From Flavobacteriaceae bacterium (GTDB taxonomy: Bacteria; Bacteroidota; Bacteroidia; Flavobacteriales; Flavobacteriaceae): 64,000 bases of DNA. The DNA lies in assembly GCA_017852395.1 (NCBI GenBank), contig JAFMLE010000007.1, positions 16,101 to 80,100 of the forward strand, written 5' to 3'. Position 1 is the first letter of the stretch, and each line of letters starts with the position of its first letter. Below, one piece after another: positions 39,609-45,774 of this stretch. The notes under the pieces are model-generated. The model searched no databases. It saw nothing but the letters and a program-made list of their open reading frames with translations, and was not told the DNA's origin. Made by a program: the position numbers and the translations under genes.

Positions 39609-39612
39609 GAGG

Positions 39613-39694
39613 TGCGGGTGAAGGGACTCGAACCCCCACGCCGTGAAGCACTAGATCCTAAGTCTAGCGTGTCTACCAATTTCACCACACCCGC
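39613..39694 (-). tRNA. tRNA-Leu (anticodon UAG), type II with long variable arm
   Basis: Reverse complement: GCGGGTGTGGTGAAATTGGTAGACACGCTAGACTTAGGATCTAGTGCTTCACGGCGTGGGGGTTCGAGTCCCTTCACCCGCA. Acceptor stem is GCGGGTG/CACCCGC. Anticodon stem is CTAGA/TCTAG with loop CTTAGGA. T-loop is TTCGAGT. Confidence 0.9.
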
Positions 39695-39802
39695 AGATTT
39701 ATTGGTGGGGCAAATATAAATAAGTTTTTCCTATTCTAAGAACTCTTTTAGAATTAGATGCCGGTGAATTTGTTATTTTTAGGGACGCAAAAACCACAAC
39801 CT

Positions 39803-41191
39803 ATGATGACGCTGACCACACAACAACAACAGCAACTCGATGAACTGATTGCCTTACTAAAAATCCCCTCCATCAGTGCAGACTCCAACTACAAAGTAGC
39901 GGTTGCAGAAGCTGCAGATTGGGTATGTGCCGCATTGGCATCGGCAGGTTGTGAAGGGACTAAAGTAATTCCCACAGCGGGGCATCCAATTGTCTATGGC
40001 GAAAAAATCATCGATCCCAGCCTACCCATCGTTTTGGTTTATGGCCACTATGATGTGCAACCACCAGATCCCATCGAATTGTGGGACAGCCCCCCTTTTG
40101 AACCCGTAATCAAAACAACAGAGATTCACCCCCATGGAGCGATCTTTGCGCGTGGCGCTTGCGATGACAAGGGGCAGTTTTTTATGCACATCAAAGCCCT
40201 CGAAAACATGATAGCCCATAACACTCTGGCCTGTAATGTCAAGTTTATGATCGAAGGCGAAGAAGAAGTGGGCAGCGATCATTTGGAACAATTTGTAAAA
40301 GAAAATAAAGACCAACTGCGTGCAGATGTTATTTTGATTTCCGACACGGGTATTGGCAATATCAATGCTCCTGCAATTACAACCGGACTCCGAGGAATGA
40401 GCTATATGGAAGTGACCGTCACAGGGCCCAATCGCGATCTGCACTCCGGTTTGTATGGCGGTACAGTTGCCAATCCGATCAATATTTTATGTGATATGAT
40501 CTCGTCATTGCACGATGACCAGAGACGCATTACTATTCCCGGGTTTTATGATGCTGTGGTCGAATATACTCCCGAAGAACGCAAAACCATCGAACAGGCA
40601 CCAATCGATGATACGGCCTTTAAAAAAGCTTTGGATCTCGATGCGCTGATGGGCGAATCCGGGTATACGACCTTAGAACGCAAATCCCTCCGCCCTACCC
40701 TCGACGTCAATGGCATCTGGGGGGGCTATACCGGAGAAGGTTCCAAAACGGTGATCGCCAGCAAAGCACACGCCAAAATATCCATGCGATTGGTACCCAA
40801 CCAAGATTGGGTAGCAATCAGTACACTTTTTGAAAACCATTTTAAGGCCCTTGCCCCAAAGGGGGTAACCGTTTCTGTAAAAACCCACCACGGAGGCAAA
40901 CCTTACGTCACCCCACTTAACAGCATGGGGTATCAGGCGGCCTACAAAGCCTATGAAGAAAGCTTTGGAGTAGCTCCAGTCGCCCTTAGAGACGGAGGAA
41001 GTATCCCCATTGTACCGATGTTCGAAGAAGTGTTGGGGATCAAAACCATTCTAATGGGCTTTGGCTTGGATAGTGATGCGATTCACTCCCCTAATGAAAA
41101 TTATGGCTTGGTCAATTTTTTTAAAGGTATCGAAACCATTCCACTCTTTTACAAACACTTTGCAGCACTTTTTAAGCAAGGTGAAGCATAA
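39803..41191 (+). CDS. M20 family dipeptidase
   Basis: I use the internal ATG at 39803. Contains GHYDVQP, ARGACDDKGQ and EGEEEVGS motifs. Length 462 aa. Confidence 0.85.
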   Translation: MMTLTTQQQQQLDELIALLKIPSISADSNYKVAVAEAADWVCAALASAGCEGTKVIPTAGHPIVYGEKIIDPSLPIVLVYGHYDVQPPDPIELWDSPPFEPVIKTTEIHPHGAIFARGACDDKGQFFMHIKALENMIAHNTLACNVKFMIEGEEEVGSDHLEQFVKENKDQLRADVILISDTGIGNINAPAITTGLRGMSYMEVTVTGPNRDLHSGLYGGTVANPINILCDMISSLHDDQRRITIPGFYDAVVEYTPEERKTIEQAPIDDTAFKKALDLDALMGESGYTTLERKSLRPTLDVNGIWGGYTGEGSKTVIASKAHAKISMRLVPNQDWVAISTLFENHFKALAPKGVTVSVKTHHGGKPYVTPLNSMGYQAAYKAYEESFGVAPVALRDGGSIPIVPMFEEVLGIKTILMGFGLDSDAIHSPNENYGLVNFFKGIETIPLFYKHFAALFKQGEA

Positions 41192-42305
41192 ACAATTCGG
41201 CGGCGATGCCGTCAGATAAAAACCGAGCTTTAACCGGAATTCTGAGTATATCGCCATCCCAATAGAGGTAGTTTGCGGCAATCTGTTTTTCGGCTTGTTC
41301 CTCCAAATAACGAGCATAAATTGGCCCAAATTGTGTTTCGATAAAGCCTTTAGAAACGCCCCATTCGGTGCGCAAACCAATCATAATATATTCGTTATAC
41401 CGATCTTTTGGGGTTAAGGTTTCTTTTTCTAAAGGCAATCGATTTTTTTCGAGTGCTTGTATGTACTTTGCATTGTTGGCAACATTCCACGACCGTTGTG
41501 AAGCGCCATCATATGAGTGGGCTGAGGGGCCAATTCCGATATAAGGCAGCCCTTTCCAATAGTTGCTGTTGTTGACGGCATAAAACCCTTGTTTTCCAAA
41601 ATTAGAAAACTCATAATTGTGGTAGCCCTCACTTTCTAAGCGCTGCACCAAATGGTCATATTGTTGCTGCACCTGTTCGTCGTCTAATAATTGAATTTGA
41701 TCCGTTTGTACCCATCGGTGGAGAACTGTTTTGGGCTCTACCGTAAGCGCATAGGCCGATATATGAGGGGGTTGAAACGCTAGTACCCGATCTAAAGTTT
41801 TTTGCCACTCAACAAGTGAACTACCGGGCATACCATAGATAAGGTCTACGGAATAATTATCGAATATTTTAGAAACCTCATCCAATATCCGTAGAGAATC
41901 TGTGGCCCCGTGCGCACGGTTCATCAACTTCAAATCCCGGTCTAGAAAAGATTGGACTCCTATACTTAACCTGTTGATTCCCAGGTTATAAACACCTTTA
42001 AGGTATTCGGGGTGACCATCATCGGGATTCAACTCCAACGTACACTCTGCGCCATCCAAAACCCGGTAATGTATGTAAATCAAACCGATGATTTCTTCCA
42101 ATTCCGATAGGGACAATAGAGAGGGTGAGCCGCCTCCAAAGTAGATACTTTGAAGCGGGGTTTTTACTTCGCTTTTGCGAAGCACAAGTTCTTTTTTAAG
42201 CGCGGATATAAGGGCGGTCTTATTTTTAAGTCCCGTACTAAAATGAAAATTGCAATAATGACACGCCTGTTTACAAAAAGGAAAATGAAGATATAGACTT
42301 GCCAT
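41172..42305 (-). CDS. hemW: radical SAM family heme chaperone HemW / HemN-like protein
   Basis: 377 aa. Contains LYLHFPFCKQACHYCNF (CxxxCxxC), GGGSPS, and NSNYWKG...IGIGPSAHSY in the HemN C-terminal domain. Confidence 0.85.
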   Translation of the reverse strand: MASLYLHFPFCKQACHYCNFHFSTGLKNKTALISALKKELVLRKSEVKTPLQSIYFGGGSPSLLSLSELEEIIGLIYIHYRVLDGAECTLELNPDDGHPEYLKGVYNLGINRLSIGVQSFLDRDLKLMNRAHGATDSLRILDEVSKIFDNYSVDLIYGMPGSSLVEWQKTLDRVLAFQPPHISAYALTVEPKTVLHRWVQTDQIQLLDDEQVQQQYDHLVQRLESEGYHNYEFSNFGKQGFYAVNNSNYWKGLPYIGIGPSAHSYDGASQRSWNVANNAKYIQALEKNRLPLEKETLTPKDRYNEYIMIGLRTEWGVSKGFIETQFGPIYARYLEEQAEKQIAANYLYWDGDILRIPVKARFLSDGIAAELFMLHLA

Positions 42306-42339
42306 AAGCGGGTTTAGACAGCCACCAAATTAACCGAAT

Positions 42340-42444
42340 TTAATGGCATTGGCAACCTTCGCAATGGCAATTTTGACAGGTGCAGGAGGTGCAGCTTCCA
42401 TTTTGACAAGACGTGCAAGAACAGGTACAAGAAATCTTTTTCAT
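42340..42444 (-). CDS. unannotated 34-aa cysteine-rich (metallothionein-like) peptide MKKISCTCSCTSCQNGSCTSCTCQNCHCEGCQCH
   Basis: Hand reverse-complement and translation of 42444 to 42340. It has 11 Cys and 2 His, and an internal repeat (SCTSC twice, CQN twice). It fills the otherwise empty 198-nt ruvC-hemW spacer on the same strand as both genes. It is below the ORF-track length cutoff. Confidence 0.45.
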   Translation of the reverse strand: MKKISCTCSCTSCQNGSCTSCTCQNCHCEGCQCH

Positions 42445-42503
42445 GAGTAAGTAATTTTGAGTTCACTCATAAAGGTACTTTATTTTATATACTTTACCGG
42501 CCT

Positions 42504-43061
42504 TTAGCTGGCTTTATCCTGGTTTTGACGAACAAAAGAGGCCCAACCCGAATAGGTTTTCTCGGTGGTTGCTTTTCCCGAATTATAAAAATGACAAACT
42601 GCTGCGGCAAGACCATCTGTAGCATCGAGGTTTTTGGGGAGTGTTTTGATTTTGAGCAATTGCTGCAACATCTTTGCCACCTGCTCTTTGCTCGCATTTC
42701 CATTACCCGTAATGGCCATTTTTATTTTTTTTGGCGAATATTCTGTTATTGGAACTTCACGGCTCAAGCCGGCCGCCATAGCCACTCCTTGAGCGCGCCC
42801 AAGTTTTAACATCGACTGCACGTTTTTACCAAAAAAAGGGGCTTCAATAGCAATTTCGTCGGGATGATAATTGTCGATCAGTTCAATGGTTCTTTGAAAG
42901 ATATGCTTCAACTTGAGGTAATGGTTAGTATATTTTTTGAGCTGTAGCTCGTGAAGTTGCATCAATTCCATTTGCTGTCCACAAACACGTATCAATCCAA
43001 AACCCATTATGGTCGTACCCGGGTCTATACCAAGGATAATCCGTGTTGTTTGATCATTCAT
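42504..43061 (-). CDS. ruvC: crossover junction endodeoxyribonuclease
   Basis: 185 aa. Contains [14 protein letters not shown] and the later EAPFFGKN and [12 protein letters not shown] catalytic motifs. Confidence 0.95.
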
Positions 43062-44265: not shown

Positions 44266-44730
44266 TTAGCTCATGGAAGTTTGGGGTTTTTGGGTTGACA
44301 ATGTCGGTATTGCAGCTCGGCGTATTTGTCCACTGAGACTGACTTCTATTTTTTGTGGATGATAACTAAACCATCCTGTTTTTCGTTTTCCAAAATTATT
44401 AATCCGTATGTAGTTTGGGAAATCATTGTTTCCCAACTGATTGTTGTAGGCCAGTCGAAACTCATAAAATTTGGTTGACAATTTTTGAACCCGATACACA
44501 TGACGCATCAAAAAGGATTTGGACTCTTTGCTCAGGTCTTCATCTAAGTCTTTGACGCCCATTTTGGCAAAAAGACTCGAACATGTTATGCGATAATCAT
44601 CATCACTCAAATCCCATAACTCTTGGATTGCAGCAGCTCCAAAGCCCATGGCCGTTGCTTGGAGTACTGAAAACTCCTTAGGAGTAAGGGAAACATTGAG
44701 AATGGATTTTTTTTGTACTGTTGGCTTCAT
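44266..44730 (-). CDS. hypothetical protein with LuxR/GerE-like HTH
   Basis: I use the ATG at 44730 (MKPTVQKK...). LTPKEFSVLQATAMGFGAAAIQELWDLSDDDYRITCSSLFAKMGV resembles a GerE-type HTH. The C-terminal half is unknown, and the context is AT-rich. Confidence 0.4.
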   Translation of the reverse strand: MKPTVQKKSILNVSLTPKEFSVLQATAMGFGAAAIQELWDLSDDDYRITCSSLFAKMGVKDLDEDLSKESKSFLMRHVYRVQKLSTKFYEFRLAYNNQLGNNDFPNYIRINNFGKRKTGWFSYHPQKIEVSLSGQIRRAAIPTLSTQKPQTSMS

Positions 44731-44969
44731 TAGCAAAAATATAAGATTGTACAATGAGGTATCGCGCTTTAAAAACGAATGCAAAACAAATATGCAGTCC
44801 TATTTGTGTGTTGTAGTAATTAGAGTAATAATTGGTTTTATTGAAGTGGATTTTGGTAATCCCTATTTTTTTATGGCCATTGATCAAATTGAAAATTGTA
44901 ATATATGTCCTACAATTTTCAGGGTGTTTCGCTCCTTTTAAATCCTTTATAATTGTGTACTTTTGGAGC

Positions 44970-45176
44970 ATGAAATTATTTCTACTCACTTTTGGACTTT
45001 TGGGATTGGCCTTTGCAGGGATTGCTATAAAAATATGGACCAAAAAAGATGGAAAATTTGCAGGGACCTGCGCCAGTCAAAGCCCGTTTCTCAATAAAGA
45101 CAACAAACCATGTGGGTTGTGCGGCAAAATGCCTGAAGAACAAGAGTGTCGTAACACTGCCCAACATCTAAATTAA
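44970..45176 (+). CDS. 68-aa single-TM, four-Cys protein (NqrM/DUF539-like candidate)
   Basis: Internal ATG at 44970: MKLFLLTFGLLGLAFAGIAIKIWTKKDGKFAGTCASQSPFLNKDNKPCGLCGKMPEEQECRNTAQHLN. It has one N-terminal TM helix followed by exactly four Cys, including CGLCG. A TACTTTTG -7 box lies at 44958-44965. Confidence 0.4.
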   Translation: MKLFLLTFGLLGLAFAGIAIKIWTKKDGKFAGTCASQSPFLNKDNKPCGLCGKMPEEQECRNTAQHLN

Positions 45177-45207
45177 TTTTGTAGTTTTCGGTTAGAATCC
45201 AATTGGA

Positions 45208-45774
45208 ATGGCTACAGAAGTGTTGCATGAGATCATTGTCGCGGCTCAAAATAACGATCAAAAAGCATTTAATGCCCTGTTTGATCATTATTGGTCTTTG
45301 GTTTTCAATTTTCAACTCAAAAACACCAAAAACGACCATACCGCAGAAGAATTGAGCATCCAAACCCTGGCAAAAGCGTTTGATAAAATCGATACCTATA
45401 ATCCAGAATATGCGTTTAGCACTTGGCTGCTCACCATTTCAAAAAACCTTCAAATTGATCAAATCCGTAAAAGTCAAAGACGCCTAACAGGTCCCACAGC
45501 CAAAGAGGAAGCGACAGAAACCATCAGCACTACGACCCCTTCCCCAGAAGAGTTGATGATTGCTTCTCAAAGCCTAGAGCAGGTTCTAAAAGCCCTAAAA
45601 ATTTTAAAACCCGAATACCGCAAGCTGATCCAATTGCGGTTTTTTGAAGAACACAGTTATAAAGAACTGAGCATTGCGCTGGATCAACCGATAAATACTA
45701 TAAAAGTTAAACTATTGCGGGCCAAAAAAGTGCTCGCAGAACACATTAATTTTAATGATTACAACACTACGTAA
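45208..45774 (+). CDS. ECF-type RNA polymerase sigma-70 factor
   Basis: 188 aa. Region 2 (FNALFDHYWSLVFNF...AEELSIQTLAKAF) and region 4 (YRKLIQLRFFEEHSYKELSIAL...TIKVKLLRAKKVL) are both recognisable. Confidence 0.85.
   Translation: MATEVLHEIIVAAQNNDQKAFNALFDHYWSLVFNFQLKNTKNDHTAEELSIQTLAKAFDKIDTYNPEYAFSTWLLTISKNLQIDQIRKSQRRLTGPTAKEEATETISTTTPSPEELMIASQSLEQVLKALKILKPEYRKLIQLRFFEEHSYKELSIALDQPINTIKVKLLRAKKVLAEHINFNDYNTT

What the first reader, a model, noticed from the sequence alone, without database searches (positions are those of the whole stretch)
42340..42444. Hidden 34-codon ORF for an 11-cysteine peptide between ruvC and the radical-SAM gene hemW
**What the sequence shows.** The minus strand from 42444 to 42340 reads ATG AAA AAG ATT TCT TGT ACC TGT TCT TGC ACG TCT TGT CAA AAT GGA AGC TGC ACC TCC TGC ACC TGT CAA AAT TGC CAT TGC GAA GGT TGC CAA TGC CAT TAA, which gives MKKISCTCSCTSCQNGSCTSCTCQNCHCEGCQCH.
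- One third of the residues are Cys, in CxC/CxxC spacing, with two His near the end.
- There is an internal duplication: SCTSC twice and CQN twice, mirrored by TGTCAAAAT twice in the DNA.
- It is too short for the ORF track.
- It sits on the same strand as its neighbours, inside the only sizeable gap (198 nt) of the tight lipoprotein-ruvC-hemW string. It starts 59 nt after the ruvC stop and ends 34 nt before the hemW ATG, and I see no terminator hairpin between them.

**Interpretation (inference).**
- It may be a metallothionein-like metal or Fe-S binding peptide, possibly functionally tied to the radical SAM heme chaperone HemW.
- Less likely, it is a Cys-rich RiPP-like substrate. Its composition recalls SCIFF-type peptides, but it has no leader region and HemW has no SPASM domain.

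I do not know of a described family with this sequence.
Basis: partly seen in the sequence, partly recalled or inferred. Interest (0 to 1): 0.75.

Follow-up and report, generated by a model that had tools for sequence, protein, structure and literature searches.

The report
Hidden 11-cysteine miniprotein gene, phage-shared
A never-annotated 34-codon gene between ruvC and hemW in an uncultured marine flavobacterium encodes a real, conserved 11-cysteine miniprotein, most likely a metal-binding peptide, and the same cysteine pattern recurs as a small module in many uncultivated phage proteins.

Summary
The ORF (window 42444..42340, minus strand) is a real protein-coding gene.

- **Conservation.** Four other lineages carry a 31–35-codon ORF in the same ruvC–hemW spacer (HemW 57–68% identical). 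All 11 Cys are in register (CxCxCxxCxxxxCxxCxCxxCxCxxCxC).
- **Selection on the protein.** Cys-codon positions 1 and 2 never vary. The synonymous third position varies in 9 of 11. Nearly every other codon changes.
- **Rivals excluded.** No conserved RNA structure, no terminator and no consistently open antisense frame.
- **Unannotated.** No Pfam, NCBIfam, PHROG, Rfam or PDB match. None of the 31–37-aa peptides exists among 15 billion predicted proteins.
- **Patchy distribution.** The gene is absent from about 7 equally close lineages and from 80 other Flavobacteriaceae species.
- **Phage link (new).** The same Cys11+Gly skeleton occurs in 29 IMG/VR viral contigs. It appears as stand-alone 31–46-aa ORFs, as DUF3008 fusions, and in the C-terminal linkers of S49, ClpP-like and S78 head-maturation proteases. 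Two decoy skeletons returned no genuine module.

Best reading (inferred, not shown): a metallothionein-like metal-thiolate miniprotein of an undescribed family. A specific tie to HemW is not supported, and the RiPP and leader-peptide readings are rejected. Whether the phage and bacterial versions share ancestry or converged is unresolved.

The parts
42340..42444 (-). 34-codon gene (stop included) for the Cys11 miniprotein MKKISCTCSCTSCQNGSCTSCTCQNCHCEGCQCH. The skeleton is CxCxCxxCxxxxCxxCxCxxCxCxxCxC, with Cys at residues 6, 8, 10, 13, 18, 21, 23, 26, 28, 31 and 33, and Gly16 in the loop.
   Evidence: Sequence and translation. Orthologues in the same spacer in L091, L092, L336 and L094, with all 11 Cys in register. 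Codon test. Nine of ten same-species contigs are identical and one carries K3T.
42470..42477 (-). TACCTTTA, a promoter-like element 33 nt upstream of the ATG. It matches 7 of 8 positions of the Bacteroidetes -7 box TAnnTTTG (consensus from my own knowledge). It would give the small gene, and probably hemW, its own promoter.
   Evidence: The identical octamer lies at -33, -30, -29 and -29 from the ATG in 4 of 5 carrier lineages, although synonymous sites are saturated. It is absent in L094. Function is inferred and not shown.
42321..42347 (-). Hairpin of 11 bp (2 G-U pairs, 5-nt loop) that straddles the stop codon. It is not followed by a U-run, so it is not an intrinsic terminator. Its role is uncertain.
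   Evidence: RNA fold of the spacer, z = -2.83. The core TAAATTCGnTTAATTT is shared only with L091. No consensus structure exists across the five carriers.
42504..43061 (-). Context: ruvC, the upstream neighbour on the same strand.
   Evidence: TIGR00228 at 134.5 bits; PF02075 at 1.1e-42.
41172..42305 (-). Context: hemW (radical SAM heme chaperone), the downstream neighbour starting 34 nt after the small gene. It is probably co-transcribed.
   Evidence: TIGR00539 at 245.7 bits against a cutoff of 205.4. Pfam finds Radical_SAM and HemN_C only, with no SPASM domain.

Best explanation
The ORF is a genuine, unannotated gene encoding a 34-residue cytoplasmic miniprotein. Its 11 invariant cysteines most likely wrap a metal-thiolate cluster, so it would work like a single-domain metallothionein that buffers, stores or detoxifies Zn(II), Cd(II) or Cu(I).

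**Shown.**
- It is protein-coding and under purifying selection on the Cys pattern.
- It belongs to a family defined by the skeleton CxCxCxxCxxGxCxxCxCxxCxCxxCxC.
- That skeleton also occurs in uncultivated phages as stand-alone 31-46-aa ORFs and as a module in larger proteins.

**Inferred.**
- It binds metal. The number of metal ions is unknown.
- It folds as a beta-hairpin with the conserved Gly in the turn. This would put alternate Cys side chains on one face.
- It is transcribed from its own Bacteroidetes-type promoter, probably together with hemW.
- It entered the ruvC-hemW spacer once in an ancestor of this clade and was later lost cleanly in several lineages.
For: **Coding and under selection.**
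- ORFs of 31-35 codons sit in the same spacer in four further lineages: L091, L092, L336 and L094 (HemW 57-68% identical). All 11 Cys are in register.
- At the 11 Cys codons, positions 1 and 2 vary in 0 of 11 and position 3 varies in 9 of 11. At the 17 other codons, 15, 13 and 17 vary at positions 1, 2 and 3.
- Between most lineages pS is 0.76-1.09 (saturated) while pN is 0.22-0.35. The closest pair has 3 synonymous and 2 non-synonymous changes, giving dN/dS 0.12.
- L336 has stops in all three antisense frames.
- There is no conserved RNA structure: consensus energy -1.44 kcal/mol, with an unfavourable covariation term.

**Family.**
- The skeleton pattern finds 28 clean modules among 49 viral hits, plus L326 from the first scan. 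That gives 29 loci and 21 unique sequences.
- Two decoy skeletons with the same Cys number, the same Gly and the same spacings gave no genuine module. The single 'clean' hit was a CRCSG tandem repeat.
- A profile built only from phage modules scores the flavobacterial peptides at 21-27 bits. Composition-preserving shuffles average about -10 bits, and 0 of 2000 reach the real score.

**Metallothionein-like features.**
- The peptide is 34 aa, 32% Cys, has no aromatic residues and has CxC/CxxC motifs.
- The invariant Cys count is odd, which argues against an all-disulfide fold.
- There is no signal peptide, only 5 residues before the first Cys.
- A Zn4Cys11 cluster is the known stoichiometry of the mammalian MT alpha-domain (abstract of PMC10243857).

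**Fold and promoter.**
- AF2 on the single sequence gives pLDDT 78.4 and a hairpin of strands 7-14 and 17-24, with the turn at Asn15-Gly16.
- The promoter-like TACCTTTA is conserved in 4 of 5 carriers.
Against: - Metal binding is not demonstrated. There is no expression evidence of any kind (transcript, ribosome footprint or peptide).
- No sequence or structural match exists to any characterised metallothionein.
- No metal-resistance or metal-sensing gene is adjacent. The Nramp and ECF sigma genes are about 3 kb away on the other strand.
- The gene is dispensable. About 7 equally related lineages and 80 other species lack it.
- Similarity to the phage modules in the 16 columns not imposed by my search pattern is only marginal (P = 0.02-0.46 per peptide). 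Common ancestry with the phage module is therefore not proven.
- The AF2 model comes from a single sequence without metals.
Confidence: 0.6

Rival explanations
1. The Cys11 miniprotein binds iron-sulfur cluster(s), or acts as a thiol or persulfide redox buffer or carrier. On this reading it does not act as a Zn/Cu metallothionein-like buffer.
For: Eleven conserved Cys in 28 residues could ligate Fe-S clusters. The gene sits directly upstream of a [4Fe-4S] radical SAM protein. No data distinguish between metals.
Against: The spacing does not resemble the ferredoxin-type CxxCxxCxxxCP motif (direct reading). The association with hemW is limited to this clade and absent in phage homologues. No isc or suf genes are nearby.
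Confidence: 0.15
2. It is a dedicated accessory of HemW, for example delivering Fe, S or metal to the heme chaperone or regulating it. This would explain its fixed position 34-38 nt upstream of hemW.
For: The ORF has the same position and orientation upstream of hemW in all five carrier sequences, at 34, 35, 38, 38 and 152 nt. No terminator lies between them.
Against: One insertion that was inherited vertically explains the fixed position equally well. HemW is the housekeeping orthologue with the same ruvC-hemW synteny in 73 of 80 species and about 7 close lineages that lack the ORF. The 29 phage copies occur in proteases, in DUF3008 fusions or alone, never with hemW.
Confidence: 0.07
3. It is a regulatory upstream ORF rich in Cys codons. 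Ribosome stalling under cysteine or Cys-tRNA limitation would control hemW expression, and the peptide itself would have no function.
For: Conservation of Cys codons with free variation elsewhere is also what a leader peptide would show. The ORF is a short distance from hemW.
Against: No terminator or antiterminator and no conserved RNA structure exists in the spacer. HemW is not a cysteine-metabolism gene. The exact Cys spacing is conserved, and the same skeleton sits inside large phage proteins and in stand-alone phage ORFs, which a leader peptide cannot explain.
Confidence: 0.04
4. It is a RiPP precursor (SCIFF/ranthipeptide-like, or azoline- or thioether-forming) that is modified by the neighbouring radical SAM enzyme.
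For: The window copy is rich in Cys, Ser and Thr, and it lies next to a radical SAM gene.
Against: There is no leader region, only 5 residues before the first Cys. The Ser and Thr are not conserved in orthologues. There is no TIGR03973/SCIFF hit. The neighbour is bona fide HemW without a SPASM domain and is present in non-carriers. No protease or transporter is nearby. The module is embedded in phage proteases and capsid fusions.
Confidence: 0.03
5. It is a chance ORF, or a conserved non-coding DNA or RNA element that merely happens to be open.
For: No gene caller has ever called it.
Against: The codon-position pattern at the Cys codons (0/0/9 of 11) with saturated synonymous sites is unexplainable without translation-level selection. 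There is no consensus RNA structure. No window shuffle reproduces the pattern.
Confidence: 0.02

Closest known systems
Metallothioneins in the broad operational sense, for example the mammalian MT alpha-domain (Zn4Cys11) and fungal Cu-MTs such as yeast Cup1 and N. crassa MT
   Same: Very small size. About 30% Cys in CxC and CxxC motifs. No aromatic residues. Eleven invariant Cys in about 28 residues, equal to the ligand count of the Zn4Cys11 alpha-domain cluster (abstract of PMC10243857). The N-terminal CxCxCxxC resembles the CQCQCGSC of Cup1 (from memory, a lead only).
   Different: There is no detectable sequence relationship. The module profile scores MT2A at -18.1, CUP1 at -5.0 and N. crassa MT at +2.5 bits, and no MT Pfam family matches. 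The Cys skeleton is different. The predicted fold is an ordered beta-hairpin and not a metal-dependent coil. Metal binding is untested.
Bacterial metallothioneins of the SmtA/BmtA type (Pfam PF02069; Synechococcus, Pseudomonas, Anabaena) and M. tuberculosis copper MT (MymT)
   Same: They are small, cytoplasmic, bacterial, Cys-rich metal-binding proteins, some with His ligands. The window copy has two His.
   Different: SmtA-type MTs have a GATA-like zinc-finger fold and bind 3-4 Zn (PMC10612145). The peptide has no PF02069 hit, and SmtA scores 3.0 bits against the module profile. In the paper read (PMC10612145), the bacterial MTs named are from Synechococcus, Pseudomonas, Anabaena and M. tuberculosis. 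The His residues are not conserved in orthologues.
The Cys11 module in uncultivated phage proteins. This grouping is defined here; I found no description of it. It occurs in the linkers of S49, ClpP-like and S78 head-maturation proteases, in DUF3008 fusions and as stand-alone 31-46-aa ORFs.
   Same: The 11-Cys skeleton is identical, and the Gly sits in the 4-residue loop in 4 of 5 flavobacterial lineages. The length is similar when the module stands alone. The flavobacterial peptides score 21-27 bits against a phage-only profile, and 0 of 2000 shuffles reach that score.
   Different: Phage versions are highly charged (K/D/E), whereas flavobacterial versions are polar and neutral (Q/N/S/T) with an invariant Gln after Cys4 that no phage copy has. 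Similarity in the unconstrained columns is marginal. The genomic context is unrelated.
SCIFF (six-Cys-in-forty-five) ranthipeptide precursors
   Same: They are short, Cys-rich peptides encoded next to a radical SAM gene.
   Different: There is no TIGR03973 match, no leader region and no SPASM maturase. The neighbour is housekeeping HemW.

Membership tests
Metallothionein (operational definition) | Low molecular weight, Cys content around 30%, CxC/CxxC motifs, no aromatic residues | tested here: met
   The peptides are 31-35 aa with 11-12 Cys, and none of the five orthologues has F, W or Y.
Metallothionein (operational definition) | Binds several metal ions in metal-thiolate clusters | not testable with these tools
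   This needs ICP-MS or ESI-MS on the peptide. Only the ligand count (11 invariant Cys) and the cytoplasmic location are consistent with it.
Bacterial metallothionein SmtA/BmtA (PF02069) | Match to the family profile and a Cys9His2 GATA-like zinc-finger fold | tested here: not met
   No Pfam hit at E<=1. SmtA scores 3.0 bits against the module profile. AF2 predicts a plain hairpin. No PDB hit by sequence or fold.
SCIFF / ranthipeptide precursor | TIGR03973 match, a leader peptide, and an adjacent radical SAM maturase with a SPASM domain | tested here: not met
   No NCBIfam hit. Only 5 residues precede the first Cys. The neighbour is TIGR00539 HemW with Radical_SAM and HemN_C only and is also present in non-carriers.
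Leader-peptide attenuator / regulatory uORF | Conserved alternative RNA structures (terminator and antiterminator, or start-site sequestering) coupled to the uORF | tested here: not met
   No terminator lies on the coding strand. The RNAalifold consensus is -1.44 kcal/mol with a covariation term of +0.72.
Phage Cys11 module (defined here) | Skeleton CxCxCxxCxxGxCxxCxCxxCxCxxCxC, with all 11 Cys in register | tested here: met
   Alignment A1 has 11 invariant Cys columns. There are 21 unique phage modules. Gly is present in 4 of 5 flavobacterial lineages.
Phage Cys11 module (defined here) | The skeleton is specific and not a by-product of dense Cys-rich sequence space | tested here: met
   The real skeleton gave 28 clean modules from 49 hits. 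The reversed decoy gave 1 of 24, which was a tandem repeat. The permuted decoy gave 0 of 27.
Phage Cys11 module (defined here) | Residue similarity outside the columns imposed by the search, as evidence of common ancestry | tested here: inconclusive
   A permutation test on the 16 free columns gave P = 0.083, 0.37, 0.024, 0.069 and 0.46. In the first scan, which imposed 9 Cys, the 3 genuine hits all had the 2 further Cys in register.

The most novel reading that the evidence does not exclude
The Cys11 skeleton marks a previously unrecognised, autonomous metal-cluster mini-domain that moves between genes and between phages and bacteria. In phages it was inserted independently into the capsid-targeting linkers of three different classes of head-maturation protease, into DUF3008 proteins, and into stand-alone genes. 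That would make it the first phage-borne metallothionein-like domain, possibly packaged into capsids. In a clade of marine Flavobacteriaceae a stand-alone copy has been domesticated as a hidden gene.
Probability: 0.35. Interest if true: 0.8.

Novelty: new variant of a known kind. Interest (0 to 1): 0.62.

Why it matters
- **A blind spot in annotation.** A conserved gene family has stayed invisible because its products are 31-37 aa and low in complexity. None of nine such peptides is among 15 billion predicted proteins, and word-indexed, HMMER and BLAST searches all return nothing.
- **A new metallothionein-like family.** If the peptide binds metals, it would add a metallothionein-like family with a new Cys skeleton in Bacteroidota. 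I found no report of a metallothionein from that phylum. It would also be relevant to trace-metal handling by abundant marine Flavobacteriaceae.
- **A testable phage question.** The recurrence of the same module in phage head-maturation protease linkers raises a concrete question: why would phages place a metal-cluster mini-domain inside the procapsid?

Tried and rejected
**Searches that found nothing.**
- With module alignment A1 it found 19 word candidates, none scoring.
- The exhaustive phmmer search of 1.84 billion representatives gave 0 hits at E<=1e-3. This is a weak test for a 34-aa Cys-rich query.
- Exact look-ups of the peptide found nothing.
- Pfam, NCBIfam, PHROGs and Rfam gave nothing.
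- The PDB gave nothing by sequence profile or by Foldseek.
- tblastn of the peptide against cultured phages gave nothing, because of low-complexity masking.

**Scans that went wrong or came back empty.**
The metagenome result says nothing about bacterial distribution outside this clade.
- A scan for the Gln variant in viral contigs gave one hit, an out-of-frame repeat.

**Leads that did not hold.**
- Cultured cyanophage DUF3008 homologues exist, but the S-WAM1 protein has no Cys. No cultured phage was shown to carry the module.

**Readings rejected.**
- Antisense ORF 42343-42450(+): L336 has stops in all antisense frames.
- RNA element.
- Intrinsic terminator.
- RiPP precursor.
- Cys-sensing leader peptide.

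**Uninformative.**
- Within-species polymorphism has only 1 variable site in the ORF, and polymorphism is low throughout the locus.
- Six literature searches found no description of the motif.

Full report
**1. The observation**

The minus strand of the window from 42444 to 42340 is an ATG-to-TAA ORF of 34 codons encoding MKKISCTCSCTSCQNGSCTSCTCQNCHCEGCQCH.
- 11 Cys, two His, SCTSC twice and CQN twice.
- A 198-nt spacer, with 59 nt to the ruvC stop and 34 nt to the hemW ATG.

The neighbours are RuvC (TIGR00228, 134.5 bits) and HemW (TIGR00539, 245.7 bits against a cutoff of 205.4; Pfam finds Radical_SAM and HemN_C only).

No terminator-like site lies on the coding strand of the spacer.

The ORF is not a chance feature. 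A Cys-codon skeleton pattern hits the window once and hits none of 100 shuffles. The ORF is also the most Cys-rich of 423 short ATG-ORFs in the window, at 32% against a mean of 3.6%.

**2. It is a conserved coding gene**

The window comes from an uncultured marine Flavobacteriaceae population. Its HemW and RuvC are in public collections, named only as MAG proteins.

*Within the species.* Ten contigs carry the ORF. Nine are identical and one has K3T.

*In related lineages.* The ruvC-hemW spacer holds an ORF of nearly the same length:

| Locus | HemW identity | Peptide |
|---|---|---|
| L091 | 68% | MKKPICCCSCEACQQGQCDQCSCKNCQCSDCHCA |
| L092 | 59% | MKTNTCNCDCSACQQGNCDGCTCKNCQCTNCTCCS |
| L336 | 58% | MKINTCNCDCSACQQGNCNGCTCKNCQCTNCSCCS |
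| L094 | 57% | MKNCNCSCSNCQQNQCNLCTCNPCDCSGCHC |

All 11 Cys align without gaps: CxCxCxxCxxxxCxxCxCxxCxCxxCxC.

*Codon analysis.*
- At the 11 Cys codons, positions 1 and 2 never vary. The synonymous third position (TGT/TGC) varies in 9 of 11.
- At the other 17 codons, 15, 13 and 17 are variable at positions 1, 2 and 3.
- Synonymous sites are saturated between most lineages (pS 0.76-1.09), while pN is 0.22-0.35.
- The closest pair (L092 and L336) differs by 3 synonymous and 2 non-synonymous changes, giving dN/dS 0.12.

This pattern can only come from selection on the encoded cysteines.

*Alternatives excluded.*
- Antisense coding is excluded, because L336 has stops in all three antisense frames.
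- A conserved RNA structure is excluded. The RNAalifold consensus energy is -1.44 kcal/mol and the covariation term is unfavourable.
- The window's own spacer folds somewhat better than shuffles (z = -2.83) because of a hairpin over the stop codon. That hairpin has no U-run, and its core sequence (TAAATTCGnTTAATTT) is shared only with L091.

**3. Distribution and expression signals**

The gene is patchy.
- Equally related lineages have ruvC-hemW gaps of 0-34 nt and no ORF: L093, L335, L337, L385, L386 and L387/L388.
- None of 80 Flavobacteriaceae species representatives has it. ruvC is followed by hemW in 73 of them, often only 8-12 nt apart.
- On a RuvC+HemW tree, carriers and non-carriers interleave.

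Because the site and orientation are always the same, one ancestral gain followed by clean losses is the simplest history. This is an inference.

Four of the five carrier lineages keep the octamer TACCTTTA 29-33 nt upstream of the ATG. It matches 7 of 8 positions of the Bacteroidetes -7 promoter box TAnnTTTG, a consensus I take from my own knowledge. This suggests that the small gene brought its own promoter and is read through into hemW. This too is an inference, and I have no expression data.

**4. No known family**

Searches that returned nothing:
- Pfam, NCBIfam and PHROGs give no hit for the peptide, and Rfam gives none for the spacer.
- A profile search of PDB sequences and a Foldseek search of the AF2 model return nothing.
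- An exhaustive phmmer search of 1.84 billion representatives returns nothing at E<=1e-3. This is a weak test for a query this short and this biased.
- Literature searches found no description of this motif, and none of a metallothionein in Flavobacteria or in phages.

Exact look-ups show why the family is invisible. None of the five flavobacterial peptides and none of the four 31-37-aa phage peptides exists among 15 billion predicted proteins. The 46-aa peptide is there without any name. The 97-aa fusion is there and is named only 'hypothetical protein'.

**5. The same skeleton in phages**

A first DNA-pattern scan imposed 9 of the 11 Cys. It was swamped by (TGY)n microsatellites in both the metagenome and the viral collections. 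Filtering nevertheless exposed three viral proteins with the complete 11-Cys skeleton:
- a ClpP-like head-maturation protease,
- an S78 head-maturation protease,
- an S49 head-maturation protease.

In each, the module lies C-terminal of the protease domain, in a stretch that no Pfam or PHROG model covers.

A microsatellite-proof pattern (11 Cys plus the Gly codon) then found 49 viral stretches. Of these, 28 are clean, non-repetitive, in-frame modules, and the other 21 are poly-Cys repeats. Together with L326 this gives 29 loci and 21 unique module sequences, with the consensus CxCxCxxCxxGDCxxCSCxxCxCxGCxC.

The modules occur in several architectures:
- stand-alone ORFs of 31-46 aa, for example MCKCKCVPCVRGKCEKCRCKDCKCEGCSCKK;
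- the C-terminus of DUF3008-type proteins;
- tandem pairs;
- S49 and S78 proteases;
- an S78 protease-capsid fusion.

*Specificity control.* Two decoy skeletons had the same number of Cys, the same Gly and the same spacings, one in reversed order and one permuted. They gave 24 and 27 hits, essentially all microsatellites. The only 'clean' hit was a CRCSG tandem repeat.

*Profile test.* A profile built from phage modules alone scores the flavobacterial peptides at 21-27 bits. Composition-preserving shuffles average about -10 bits, and none of 2000 reach the real score.

*Caveat.* The Cys and Gly columns were imposed by my pattern. In the 16 free columns, position-specific similarity is only marginal (P = 0.02-0.46). 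The phage versions are charged, whereas the flavobacterial ones are polar with an invariant Gln that no phage copy has. Common ancestry and convergence on one cluster geometry both remain open.

I could not show the module in any cultured phage. The DUF3008 homologue of Synechococcus phage S-WAM1 has no Cys.

**6. How it most likely works**

*Shown:* a translated, selected miniprotein of about 34 aa with 11 invariant Cys.

*Inferred:* it coordinates a metal-thiolate cluster, like a single metallothionein domain. The reasons are:
- its size, its 32% Cys and its lack of aromatic residues;
- CxC and CxxC motifs;
- no signal peptide, so the thiols would be reduced in the cytoplasm;
- an odd invariant Cys count, which is incompatible with a pure disulfide knot;
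- 11 Cys, which equals the ligand set of the Zn4Cys11 cluster of the mammalian alpha-domain (abstract of PMC10243857).

AF2 on the single sequence gives a moderately confident beta-hairpin: pLDDT 78.4, strands 7-14 and 17-24, with the turn at Asn15-Gly16. This fits the conserved Gly, and it would place alternate Cys of the CxCxC runs on one face. It is a metal-free prediction from one sequence.

Which metal is bound is unknown. Fe-S binding or a redox role is the main rival.

Other readings:
- **A dedicated HemW accessory role is not supported.** HemW keeps the same synteny without the ORF, and the phage copies are unrelated to hemW.
- **A Cys-sensing leader peptide is rejected.** There is no RNA switch, and a leader peptide does not explain the embedded phage modules.
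- **A RiPP precursor is rejected.** There is no leader region, no maturase, and the Ser and Thr are not conserved.

**7. Comparison with known systems and novelty**

It works like a metallothionein, but it is not a member of any described metallothionein family.

Bacterial MTs of the SmtA type have a GATA-like zinc-finger fold and occur in cyanobacteria and Pseudomonas. MymT of M. tuberculosis is a distinct copper MT (PMC10612145). Neither matches the peptide.

I file it as a new variant of a known kind: a metallothionein-like miniprotein family with a new skeleton, hidden from annotation. The unexpected addition is that the skeleton is a recurrent module in uncultivated phages.

**8. Limits**
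- All evidence is computational.
- There is no expression or metal-binding evidence.
- The phage contigs are IMG/VR predictions.

Noticed in passing
window 44266-45774 and beyond; L082 and L084 1-1796; L094 1-409: There is a strain-variable island beside the DUF456 gene. Some contigs of the same species (L082, L084) and L094 carry a protein of about 1140 aa with a weak HNH_4 hit, possibly Cas9-like. At the same place the window has a 172-aa ORF, a 68-aa ORF, an ECF sigma factor and then Nramp.
   Followed up: no
window ~44973-45176 (+): A 68-aa ORF lies directly upstream of the ECF sigma factor gene (45208-45774). It has one hydrophobic N-terminal segment and a Cys-bearing tail (…TCASQSPFLNKDNKPCGLCGKMPEEQEC). 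It has no NCBIfam match. It could be a small membrane-bound sensor or anti-sigma partner.
   Followed up: partly
window 41172-41191: hemW (minus strand) and the M20 dipeptidase gene (39758-41191, plus strand; NF006053, 546 bits) converge, and their 3' ends overlap by 20 nt. The same overlap is seen in same-species contigs.
   Followed up: no
window 42321-42347 (-); L091 ~2957-2985: An 11-bp hairpin straddles the small gene's stop codon. Its core, TAAATTCGnTTAATTT, is shared only with the closest carrier, L091. It has no U-run. It might affect mRNA stability or hemW translation.
   Followed up: partly
L358/L359 (97-aa protein); cluster of P0144: A DUF3008-like plus Cys11 fusion protein of 97 aa is common in public data. 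Its cluster has 31 members, seen on well over 100 contigs, and it is always named 'hypothetical protein'. DUF3008 homologues without the module occur in 103 T4-like cyanophage records, and in Synechococcus phage S-SCSM1 the homologue is annotated 'virion protein'.
   Followed up: partly
L364:4483-6546: A single 687-aa viral ORF fuses an S78 prohead protease, the Cys11 module and an HK97-type major capsid protein (PF04586 and PF05065). The module lies exactly at the protease-capsid junction.
   Followed up: no
L083 (same species), hemW region: A 100-N scaffold gap inside hemW explains why only a 219-aa HemN_C fragment was called there. It is an assembly artefact and not a biological disruption.
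   Followed up: yes
window 39611-39694 (-): A tRNA-Leu gene lies between the amidohydrolase gene and the M20 dipeptidase gene. The long 'ORFs' listed across it are spurious.
   Followed up: yes
L094:2188-2215: In the most divergent carrier, a perfect 10-bp palindrome (ATGAGATGCAGTTGCATCTCAT) follows the ruvC stop. The spacer is 313 nt, with about 150 nt of extra sequence between the small ORF and hemW. The TACCTTTA box is absent there.
   Followed up: no
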